Part shown: positions 40,501 to 43,500 of the stretch, in pieces | How positions within the stretch are numbered: the first letter of the stretch is position 1 | How the letters are laid out: each line of letters starts with the position of its first letter | NCBI RefSeq assembly: GCF_032062105.1 | Contig: NW_026935443.1 | Coordinates: forward strand, 186,001-250,000 | Length of the DNA: 64,000 nucleotides | DNA from: Saccostrea cucullata | Lineage: Eukaryota | Reading direction: 5' to 3' | Program-made: the position numbers and the translations under genes | The notes under the pieces: generated by a model | Databases searched by the model: none | What the model saw: the letters and a program-made list of their open reading frames with translations, nothing else | What the model was told of the DNA's origin: nothing

Positions 40501-43500
40501 CCTGAGATATTTACAACAGAAATCTGGTCGCTTTATTTGTGTACAGCTTCTCCAGACTCTCAACATTCTGTTTGAGAACATCAGCAATGAGACATCACTC
40601 TGTAAGTTCTAGCTAGCATATCTGTAACCAGGTCCATCAGCTTGTAGATTTAATGCACAAAAGAAAGGCCAGAAAAAAAGTAATCTAACTAAATTTGATG
40701 TGGATTTAAGCACATGGTTATTTCTTTTGACAGTTAATGTTGTACAACATTCAAAAGAAACTAGAAATGCTGTATCTAGATTTATAAAGTTAAATGAACA
40801 TGTTTGACAATATACATTATATTAAGTTTAAGTAAATTTTGAAATACCTGTAATGTAGTTTCACTAGTTTATTTGTAAAATTGTTAATACCTACATAATT
40901 CTGTTAATTTCAGATTACCTCTTATCTAACAATCACATCAACTCAATCATTGTCCACAAGTTTGACTTCTCTGATGAGGAGGTGAGTGCAATTTTTTTTT
41001 TTAATTTTGGTGATTGAAGTTTCTTGTATATTTTCTTTCCAATAGGAAGTATATAGAGTCCAGAATTTCATTTTCTTTTATTATATTTTAGGTTATGGCG
41101 TATTATATTTCCTTCCTGAAAACCTTATCATTCAAGCTGAACAGACATACAATTCACTTCTTCTATAATGAGGTAAAATTAACTTCTGAGTAATAGGTTT
41201 TAATGTTGAATCAGTAGTTTTGCACTTACTTAGATTTTATGAGTACTTCTTAATGTGAATTTACAACCTCCCTGAATACTGATAGATAGATGTTAGATCT
41301 TATATAATGAGATGCTTGTATATGAAGTGCAAATCTTTTTAATTAATTAGCAATCTAAGAAAATTGTCCTCCACAAATTATAATGATCTCTGTCTCATTA
41401 AGACCTAGGCCTGGGGCCACAAAACTTAAATGAGCTCACTTTGATGTCAAACTCACTTTTCAACTGTACATGTCATGTACAATTATTCCTTTTGTGAAAA
41501 TTAGATTGAAAGTTAGCTCATTATGGTTGTTATGCCTCCATAACATAGTTTACTTTTTACAGCACACAAATGACTTTGCCCTGTACACCGAGGCTATCAA
41601 GTTCTTCAATCACTCAGAGGCCATGGTCAGAATCGCTGTCAGGACAATCACACTCAATGTCTACAGAGGTCAGTCAGACTTAAATAGAATTATTTGTTTG
41701 AATAACTATTTATTAACAATTATTAACTATTATTATTGGTTTGAATAACCACTTATTAACAGGTATTAAAATGAGAAATTTTTCCTCTTTAGTTGAGGAC
41801 AAGACAATGTTGAAGTACATCAGGAATCGGACTGCAGCTCCGTACTTCTCTAACCTTGTCTGGTTTATTGGGAACCACATACTGGACCTGGACATGTGTG
41901 TCAGGAATGATGCAGAGTGAGTTGATCATTCTGTGTAATGATGTACTACAAAATCTCTAAAAACAACTATTAATATTGCAAAGTCTATAAAAATAACTCT
42001 CAGTTTTTGTTTTTACAGAACTAAGTAAACAAGGTTTACATGAGTATACTTTGGTCACAAGTATTATCATTTTAACAGGATTTGAACAATTATAAATTTC
42101 TGCAATAAGTTATTATTGAAAATTTGAAAGGAAAAAATGATGACAGCAATGCTCTAATCCTTCCAGCCATCAGAGTAGGGACCGGTTGGCAGATCTGGTA
42201 GCAGAACACCTGGATCACTTACATTACCTGAACGACATCTTGTGTCTGAACATTGACGCCCTGAATGACGTCCTGACTGACCAGATGCTTAATCGTCTAC
42301 TGATTCCTCTGTATGTGTACTCACTGACCATGAGGAAGCGGTCAGCGGACAGAATGGTAAGATAATTGTCTACTGATTCCGCTATATGTGTACTCACTGA
42401 CCATGAGGAAACGGTAGCTTTAGAATAGTAAGACAATCGTCTATTTTCCACTTGTACTCACTGACCATGAGGAAACGGTCAGCAGACAGAATGGTAAGAC
42501 AATCTTCTACTGATTCCGCTGTACTTGTACTCACTGACCATGAGGAAACGGTCAGCGGACAGAATGGTAAGACAGTCGTCTACTGATTCCTCTGTACGTT
42601 TACTCACTGACCATGAGGAAACGGTCAGCGGACAGAATGGTAAGACAATCGTCTACTGATTCCGTTGTACTTGTACTCACTGACCATGAGGAAACGGTCA
42701 GCTGACAGAATGGTAAGACAATCGTCTACTGATTCCTCTGTACGCGTACTCACTGACCATGAGGAAGCCGTCAGCTGACAGGATGGTAAGGCATCAGGTG
42801 TAGATTGTATTCTGTGTGGCCGCAGGGTTAACTTCAACTTACCATACTTTGCAAATGATTTTGGCCTGTTTTACAGTCACATGAAAAGACAGATAAATTA
42901 TCACTGTTGAATTCATAACATTTTAATTTACTTGCTGACAATTGAGGTAGAAAAATGAAATGAGAGCAAAAATTTTCCATAAGAAAGTATCATTAGCAAG
43001 GCCTTGTCTTTCGTAGATATAATCAGAAATTCAAGTTGTGGATCTTTTTTATAACATGTATTAATGTTATCCTGTGGTATGAGTCAGATATAGATAAAAT
43101 ATGAGAGTATTCAAGCTTTTTTCAGTCTTTAGAAAGGTAAAGTATCTACACTATTTTTAGCTCTACTGGTCAGAGACCAGAAGAGTTTATGCGATAGTAA
43201 TGCGTCCGGCGTCCGTCCGTCTGTCCGTCTGTCTGTCTAGCTGTCCGTCTGTCTGTAAACAATTTTTCAAAATGCTACTCCTCCTACAGTTTTGGTCTAA
43301 TTTCAATATAACTTGGCACACAAGTAGACTACACTAAGATACATAATTTTGTATCGGTTTTTGATTTTGATTGTTGCCGTGGATTAAAAATAGAAATTTC
43401 TATGAAATTCTTTCAAAATGCTACTCCTCCTATAGTTTTAGTCTGATTTCAGTATAACTTGGCACACAAAATTTAAGATACATAATTCTGTGTATCGGTT

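What the first reader, a model, noticed from the sequence alone, without database searches (positions are those of the whole stretch)
42291..42790. Seven tandem copies of a coding exon end plus splice donor in CLEC16A
Seen: the last 66 nt of exon 8 (NRLLIPLYVYSLTMRKRSADRM) plus GTAAGA are repeated 7 times (mostly 73-bp units), giving 7 GTAAG donors, 6 in the ATG|GTAAG context. Read-through past donor 1 meets GTA AGA TAA, an immediate stop, so any downstream donor gives a premature stop even though donor 7 lies 429 nt away (a multiple of 3). Only the last copy is followed by unique intron, suggesting it is the ancestral donor. Inference: a copy-number-variable array of decoy 5' splice sites could tune the ratio of productive to NMD transcript, or the spliceosome selects the first of several equal donors by exon definition.
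Basis: partly seen in the sequence, partly recalled or inferred. Interest (0 to 1): 0.7.

Follow-up and report, generated by a model that had tools for sequence, protein, structure and literature searches.

The report
Oyster splice-donor "mirage" minisatellite
The end of one exon of an oyster CLEC16A gene is copied seven times head to tail together with its splice signal, a kind of repeat already known from human and lancelet genes and seen here at many other exon borders of the same genome; the extra splice signals are likely ignored, so this copy is probably an ordinary by-product.

Summary
The array is real: seven 66-73-bp copies of the end of CLEC16A exon 8 plus its donor. A contig from a DNA-type run of a diverged organism crosses a unit junction. 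Both RefSeq models splice at donor 1, and only copy 1 keeps the conserved peptide. This is a "mirage"/F7-intron-7-type junction minisatellite; in F7 only the first donor is used (PMC1557585). NMD tuning is unsupported: 22 of 25 comparable arrays also give a stop or frameshift, and no laid contig used a later donor, though contigs cannot exclude minor use. The more interesting result lies outside the locus. Such arrays are common here: 2 of 22 CLEC16A donors, the neighbouring gene, 16 of 26 sampled GGTAAG arrays, and 8 of 21 arrays picked with a neutral word (null 2; at most about 6% expected). An independent 68-bp array sits at the same CLEC16A donor in another animal (L125). This scan has noted mirages before, in this genome and others. 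Verdict: new member of a known kind, interest 0.25.

The parts
42167..42356 (+). CLEC16A coding exon 8 (190 nt)
   Evidence: Exact mapping of P0121/P0002; Pfam CLEC16A_C; spliced joint 41916>42167 in laid contigs
42291..42363 (+). Copy 1: last 66 coding nt + donor 1 (GT at 42357), the donor used in both RefSeq models
42363..42365 (+). In-frame TAA met on read-through past donor 1
42364..42434 (+). Copy 2 (71 nt, 2-nt deletion, weaker ATA|GTAAG donor at 42428)
42435..42500 (+). Copy 3 (66 nt, 7-nt deletion, donor at 42494)
42501..42719 (+). Copies 4-6 (73 nt each, donors at 42567, 42640, 42713; 1-2 amino-acid changes each against copy 1)
   Evidence: X2 contigs at 42542-42596, 42576-42627 and 42688-42754
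42720..42792 (+). Copy 7 (donor at 42786, GTAAGG), followed by unique intron 8
   Evidence: X2 contig 42761-42867 runs on into the intron
44570..44620 (+). Exon 9 (acceptor at 44570)

Best explanation
This is a locus-specific minisatellite whose 73-bp unit spans the exon 8 donor of oyster CLEC16A; it likely arose by one tandem duplication followed by slippage or unequal exchange, and it is likely tolerated because splicing takes the first donor and the six later copies would be removed with intron 8. Shown: the unit anatomy, the donor-1 gene models, coding conservation of copy 1 only, a tandem junction in a second organism, and many similar arrays in the genome. Inferred: the duplication mechanism, first-donor choice in oyster cells (from F7 experiments and exon definition), and selective neutrality. 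Trace use of later donors would make stop-carrying transcripts that are probably degraded; that would be noise, not regulation.
For: (1) P0002 and P0121 read ...ADRM|VDRKH..., which is donor 1 joined to 44570. (2) Copy 1 matches O. edulis at 22 of 22 residues; copies 4-7 carry 1-2 replacements each, and copies 2-3 carry deletions. (3) RNA-type contigs of X4, X5 (one study) and X10 leave the stretch at 42358, and 0 of 7 spliced runs cover 42359-42790. (4) 7 of 25 donor arrays have an in-frame second donor (one third expected by chance) and 3 of 25 are in frame and open, so there is no common NMD design. (5) In F7, only the most upstream of 5-9 identical donors is used, and stop avoidance did not explain it (PMC1557585). 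Lancelet mirages reportedly do not disturb splicing (PMC3087553, PMC3902484). (6) Read-through ORFs P0005 and P0129 of an unnamed relative (P0005 95% identical over the exon) show no repeat after the donor, so the array is dispensable in a relative.
Against: There is no direct junction count in this species. Contigs of organism A (X1, X7-X9) stop at 42265-42328, before donor 1. X4, X5 and X10 differ from the window by several bases per exon and may lack the array; their letters beyond 42358 were not displayed; and contigs drop rare forms. RefSeq models are automatic. In human CBS and 6-16, the next one or two donors are used (PMC1557585 introduction). The array is shared with organism B, about 9% diverged in intron 7, so it has persisted for some time. 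Copies 4-7 differ from copy 1 by 7 distinct silent and 5 distinct replacement changes, more silent than free drift predicts (not tested formally; allele capture, conversion or CpG decay could explain it).
Confidence: 0.82

Rival explanations
1. The array is a copy-number rheostat: later donors compete with donor 1 and send a tunable share of CLEC16A transcripts to nonsense-mediated decay.
For: Five of six later donors score about as well as donor 1 (8.7-9.1 against 8.7 bits on a hand-set matrix). All lie behind a stop in exon 8 of 23. Second and third donors are used in human CBS and 6-16 (PMC1557585 introduction). The array is present in a second organism.
Against: The stop is the default outcome (22 of 25 arrays). 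The nearest competitor, donor 2, is the most decayed (4.7 bits). No model or contig uses a later donor. A relative appears to lack the array. Similar arrays sit in many unrelated genes.
Confidence: 0.08
2. The copies are kept as extra U1 snRNP binding sites or exonic-enhancer copies that strengthen exon 8 definition or protect the long introns from premature cleavage, without being used as donors.
For: Triple GTAAG words are in excess genome-wide (GGTAAG 2718 against 780, 966 and 1130 for anagrams; AGTAAG 2396 against 422). Both CLEC16A arrays lie at its only two G|GTAAG donors (noticed after the fact). U1 protection against premature cleavage is recalled knowledge, not from a call.
Against: Arrays also occur at acceptors, where U1 has no role. 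GGTGAG and GGTATG triples show no excess over their noisy controls (695 against 1569; 1105 against 1510). The copies are accumulating deletions.
Confidence: 0.08
3. The array is an assembly artefact.
For: The assembly has 23,869 contigs and 1.17 Gb with apparent duplicates (L038/L039, L081/L086). No long read was available.
Against: Full-length copies differ from each other by 3-8 substitutions, and two others carry deletions. An X2 contig (42688-42754) crosses a unit junction with 32 and 35 letters on either side, and 6 of 12 laid X2 records fit two places.
Confidence: 0.02

Closest known systems
Human F7 intron 7 37-bp VNTR (Borensztajn et al. 2006, PMC1557585; read: abstract, introduction, five-term passages, whole discussion), with CBS IVS13, LMNB2, PDGF intron 4 and 6-16 as listed in its introduction
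   Same: The first unit spans the exon/intron border, so the donor is repeated into the intron; the first donor gives the normal mRNA.
   Different: The F7 unit has 4 exonic + 33 intronic bases; here it is 66 + 7, so coding sequence is copied. Length polymorphism and donor use are measured for F7 and not here.
Amphioxus 'mirage' minisatellites (Adh3, globins BflGb6/BflGb9, troponin C, PGBD5): PMC3087553 (passages of abstract, section 16 and supplement legends read) and PMC3902484 (one passage); the original Adh3 paper was not held
   Same: Tandem copies of an exon/intron boundary (10-160 bp units), on donor and acceptor sides, 81-100% identical, reported not to disturb splicing.
   Different: Described gene by gene in cephalochordates; here in a bivalve, with an extrapolated several hundred arrays genome-wide. 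Somatic instability was not tested here.

Membership tests
Mirage / splice-junction minisatellite | Head-to-tail copies of minisatellite length | tested here: met
   7 copies of 66-73 bp
Mirage / splice-junction minisatellite | The unit spans a real exon/intron boundary and repeats the splice signal | tested here: met
   66 coding nt + GTAAG donor of CLEC16A exon 8
Mirage / splice-junction minisatellite | Locus-specific, not carried by a transposon | tested here: met
   One place in G000 (with the tool's caveat); the unit is host coding sequence
Mirage / splice-junction minisatellite | Normal mRNA uses the exon-proximal site | tested here: inconclusive
   RefSeq models use donor 1 and contigs of relatives leave at 42358, but same-species contigs stop short and no raw reads were offered
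Mirage / splice-junction minisatellite | Copy number varies between alleles or cells (VNTR) | not testable with these tools
   X2 shows the array in another organism, but short contigs give no copy number
Regulated unproductive splicing (alternative donor coupled to NMD) | Measurable use of a stop-introducing donor that rises on NMD block | not testable with these tools
   No use seen in contigs of 7 spliced runs; contigs cannot show minor forms
Regulated unproductive splicing (alternative donor coupled to NMD) | Conservation of the unproductive segment across species | tested here: not met
   The copies decay by indels; no repeat in the read-through of P0005/P0129; 1 of 45 orthologous loci has an array at this donor, with different unit ends

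The most novel reading that the evidence does not exclude
In oysters, and likely other marine invertebrates, tandem duplication is aimed at exon-intron borders by a transcription- or splicing-coupled process. Hundreds to thousands of genes would then carry mirage arrays, and the same donor could be hit independently in different animals, as at CLEC16A exon 8 in this oyster and in L125. The genome would be a ready-made, genome-scale test of how the spliceosome chooses among identical sites, and a source of new introns and of gene conversion into coding exons.
Probability: 0.3. Interest if true: 0.6.

Novelty: new member of a known kind. Interest (0 to 1): 0.25.

Why it matters
The single array matters little: it is one more mirage, and probably silent. 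The surrounding pattern could matter. Junction arrays appear several times more often than random placement predicts in this genome, on both donor and acceptor sides. Existing oyster RNA-seq could therefore test the 'nearest site across the exon wins' rule on hundreds of natural cases, against the five human genes listed in PMC1557585. They are also a practical hazard: such arrays break short-read assembly and can mislead gene prediction. If copy number did tune CLEC16A output it would be a notable regulatory polymorphism, but nothing here supports that.

Tried and rejected
Same-species contigs (X1, X7-X9; labelled 'DNA?' but spliced) end at 42265-42328 and say nothing about donor choice. Missing cover of the array in RNA contigs is weak evidence only. 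The stretches laid did not reach exon 9, so the 42356>44570 joint was not seen directly.

RNA folding of the array gave z = -2.05 (1 of 100 shuffles as good); I do not treat this as donor masking. Use of the units as micro-exons or as new 51-69-nt introns was considered by eye and rejected: there is no pyrimidine tract, and the leftover pieces of 4, 11 and 22 nt break the frame.

The idea that arrays favour G|GTAAG donors (2 of 2 in CLEC16A) was not upheld: AGTAAG triples are about as frequent (2396), and donor-like arrays appear in the GGTGAG and GGTATG listings. The idea that only donor-side arrays are tolerated was rejected. The first acceptor pattern was swamped by an 11-bp repeat family. 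The second gave 1351 against 969, and 4 of its 26 sites scored as acceptor arrays and 5 as donor arrays (null 0).

The metagenome scan returned 45 orthologous loci, none above 84% identity, so no oyster outgroup DNA was obtained. The second TRF hit there (L166) is a two-copy repeat at the upstream side and was not followed. In one search the in-script splice products used an acceptor one base off (44571); the correct border comes. PMC12783039 (earthworm; passages read) was not relevant. No complex or structure prediction was run.

Full report
1. Observation. The window is G000:C17580:186001-250000 of a 1.17-Gb assembly. Exon 8 matches RefSeq CLEC16A-like proteins of Saccostrea cucullata at 100% (P0002 and P0121), and these map exactly onto 23 coding exons, 18 inside the window. 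TRF finds the array at 42291-42790. Seven GTAAG donors lie at 42357-42786, spaced 71, 66 and four times 73 nt; six are ATG|GTAAG. The unit is 66 coding plus 7 intronic bases. Read-through past donor 1 meets a stop after two codons, so all six later donors give a premature stop, including the in-frame donors 4 and 7. The description is correct.

2. Is it real? Full-length copies differ by 3-8 substitutions and copies 2-3 carry deletions. Run X2 (organism B, DNA-type; 34 differences and 19 gap letters over 41921-42320) has four listed short contigs wholly inside copies 3-7. One of them, 42688-42754, crosses a unit junction with 32 and 35 letters on either side; another, 42761-42867, runs from copy 7 into the unique intron. 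Depth inside the array reached 12-17 against 4-8 on the flanks, and 4 records were not shown. The array is therefore not an artefact and is shared with a diverged lineage. Read-through ORFs P0005 and P0129 from an unnamed relative (P0005 95% identical over the exon) continue 39 or more residues past the donor with no repeat, so it is likely lineage-specific.

3. Which donor is used? Both RefSeq isoforms join donor 1 to 44570; they differ only by 32 residues at exon 11. Copy 1 equals the O. edulis peptide at 22 of 22 residues, while every later copy has a replacement or an indel. Contigs of X4, X5 and X10 match up to 42358 and go on for 40-239 letters that were not displayed; the two-base overrun equals the first two bases of exon 9. 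None of the 7 spliced runs covers 42359-42790. Against over-reading: the runs closest to the window (X1, X7-X9) stop before the donor, X4, X5 and X10 may lack the array, and contigs drop rare forms. Donor-1 dominance is thus well supported but not measured.

4. Is the stop meaningful? Among 25 donor arrays judged to be at exon ends (22 fetched loci, the two CLEC16A arrays and the neighbouring gene), the next matching donor is in frame in 7 and in frame and open in 3 (for exon 8 the script took donor 3 because donor 2 is decayed). A stop or frameshift is the default, so it is no sign of design.

5. The wider pattern. CLEC16A has a second array at the exon 21 donor (80-bp unit, beyond the window): 2 of 22 donors and 0 of 22 acceptors. 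The neighbouring CCDC96/113-family gene has a 68-bp donor array at 25856-25547, minus strand. In the 264 kb around the window, 3 of 32 arrays are donor arrays (the classifier found 2, the third was seen by eye); many of the others have 120-360-bp units and look transposon-borne (that label is my recall).

Genome-wide, three GGTAAG words 60-75 nt apart give 2718 matches, against 780, 966 and 1130 for three anagrams. In 243 kb of masked local DNA, GGTAAG is no more frequent than these anagrams (54 against 106, 98 and 57). I fetched all 26 arrays behind the first 100 listed matches. Sixteen of 26 scored as donor arrays and 1 as an acceptor array at threshold 22, against 3 of 26 for reversed sequence. 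Of 23 loci sent to Pfam (3 not sent: two had no open frame of 20 residues, one is a simple satellite), 8 hit a domain at E<1e-5 that ends within two residues of the first donor (Arf, PI3/PI4 kinase, tubulin, 5'-nucleotidase, zuotin, tRNA synthetase, fibrinogen, KH), and two more hit weakly at the donor. Extrapolating 26 arrays per 100 matches gives roughly 700 arrays, about 400 at donors, for this one donor word and spacing class; duplicated haplotypes inflate this.

With a splice-neutral word, 8 of 21 arrays scored as junction arrays (5 donor, 3 acceptor; null 2 of 21). Seven of these 8 went to Pfam: one strong hit (Ssu72, 1.6e-10) and two weak. One (L096) is probably a coding repeat, and three of the 21 belong to one family. 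Random placement at CLEC16A's junction density (22 introns in 81 kb) predicts about 3%, or 6% with an assumed twofold word bias; 5 or more of 21 then has P = 0.007. Acceptor arrays exist too, with the last copy running into a PHD or POLQ-like exon. Limits: match counts are dominated by long arrays, listings cover only the first contigs, the classifier uses hand-set matrices and one gene's codons, and GGTGAG and GGTATG triples showed no excess over their controls. Survival bias and the higher GC of exons could produce part of the enrichment without any aimed mechanism.

Among 45 orthologous exon-8 loci from metagenome contigs, several of them transcript-like, L125 (129 of 189 nt identical) has a 68-bp array of at least 6.4 copies at the same donor, with different unit ends; this is likely an independent origin.

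6. Mechanism. Inferred: one duplication with its 5' break in the exon and its 3' break just inside the intron leaves the mRNA unchanged if the first donor wins, and then expands like any minisatellite. Duplications wholly inside the exon would mostly be purged. The use of the first copy at donors and the last copy at acceptors, inferred from open frames only, fits exon definition.

7. Known relatives. Human F7 intron 7 is the tested analogue: only the most upstream donor is used, the next one takes over when it is mutated, and stop avoidance did not explain the choice. CBS and 6-16 show some use of the next donors (PMC1557585). Lancelet 'mirages' are the invertebrate name (PMC3087553; PMC3902484). 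Seven library searches (listings only, apart from the four papers opened) showed no report of mirages in oysters and no genome-wide count. The library lacks most subscription papers, and no supplements were read. Earlier notes of this scan report the same class twice in this genome and in several other genomes, with mixed results on enrichment; these are unchecked.

8. Verdict. Observation confirmed; neutral junction minisatellite 0.82, NMD rheostat 0.08, U1 or enhancer role 0.08, artefact 0.02. New member of a known kind, interest 0.25. The genome-wide excess and the recurrence at one donor are the leads worth following.

Noticed in passing
window 25856-25547 (minus strand): A second donor array (68-bp unit, 4.5 copies) begins at the end of a glutamate-rich exon of a CCDC113/CCDC96-family gene.
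   Followed up: partly
G000:C17580, window-relative 80819-81372 (in L106): A second mirage in CLEC16A itself, at the exon 21 donor, 80-bp unit, seven donors.
   Followed up: partly
L125:3138-3575: A likely independent 68-bp array at the orthologous CLEC16A exon 8 donor in another animal; L127, with a similar exon end, has none.
   Followed up: partly
window 43151-44416: A high-copy interspersed element in the same intron: very deep cover at 43152-43200 in all four runs, a GTCT microsatellite and 7.6 copies of a 156-bp unit. It resembles bivalve Helentron-associated elements (label recalled). Arrays of 164-166-bp units lie at 46609-47323, 48145-49980 and 62462-62995.
   Followed up: no
window 45197-45380: Exon 11 has an alternative donor that removes 32 residues (isoform X1 against X2); a 32-residue difference between isoforms is also annotated in S. 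echinata and O. edulis. This is the apparently conserved alternative donor of the gene.
   Followed up: no
L041, L047, L048: Three donor arrays whose second donor is in frame and stop-free (72, 21 and 78 nt); these are the best places to look for proteins lengthened by a later donor.
   Followed up: no
L041 (G000:C1047:66336-67420): The array holds an internal inverted stretch (matches on both strands).
   Followed up: no
window 42291-42792: Each unit holds a 6-bp inverted repeat around a 10-nt loop, and copies 6-7 hold a 10-bp palindrome; this could favour slippage (seen in the sequence; fold z = -2.05).
   Followed up: no
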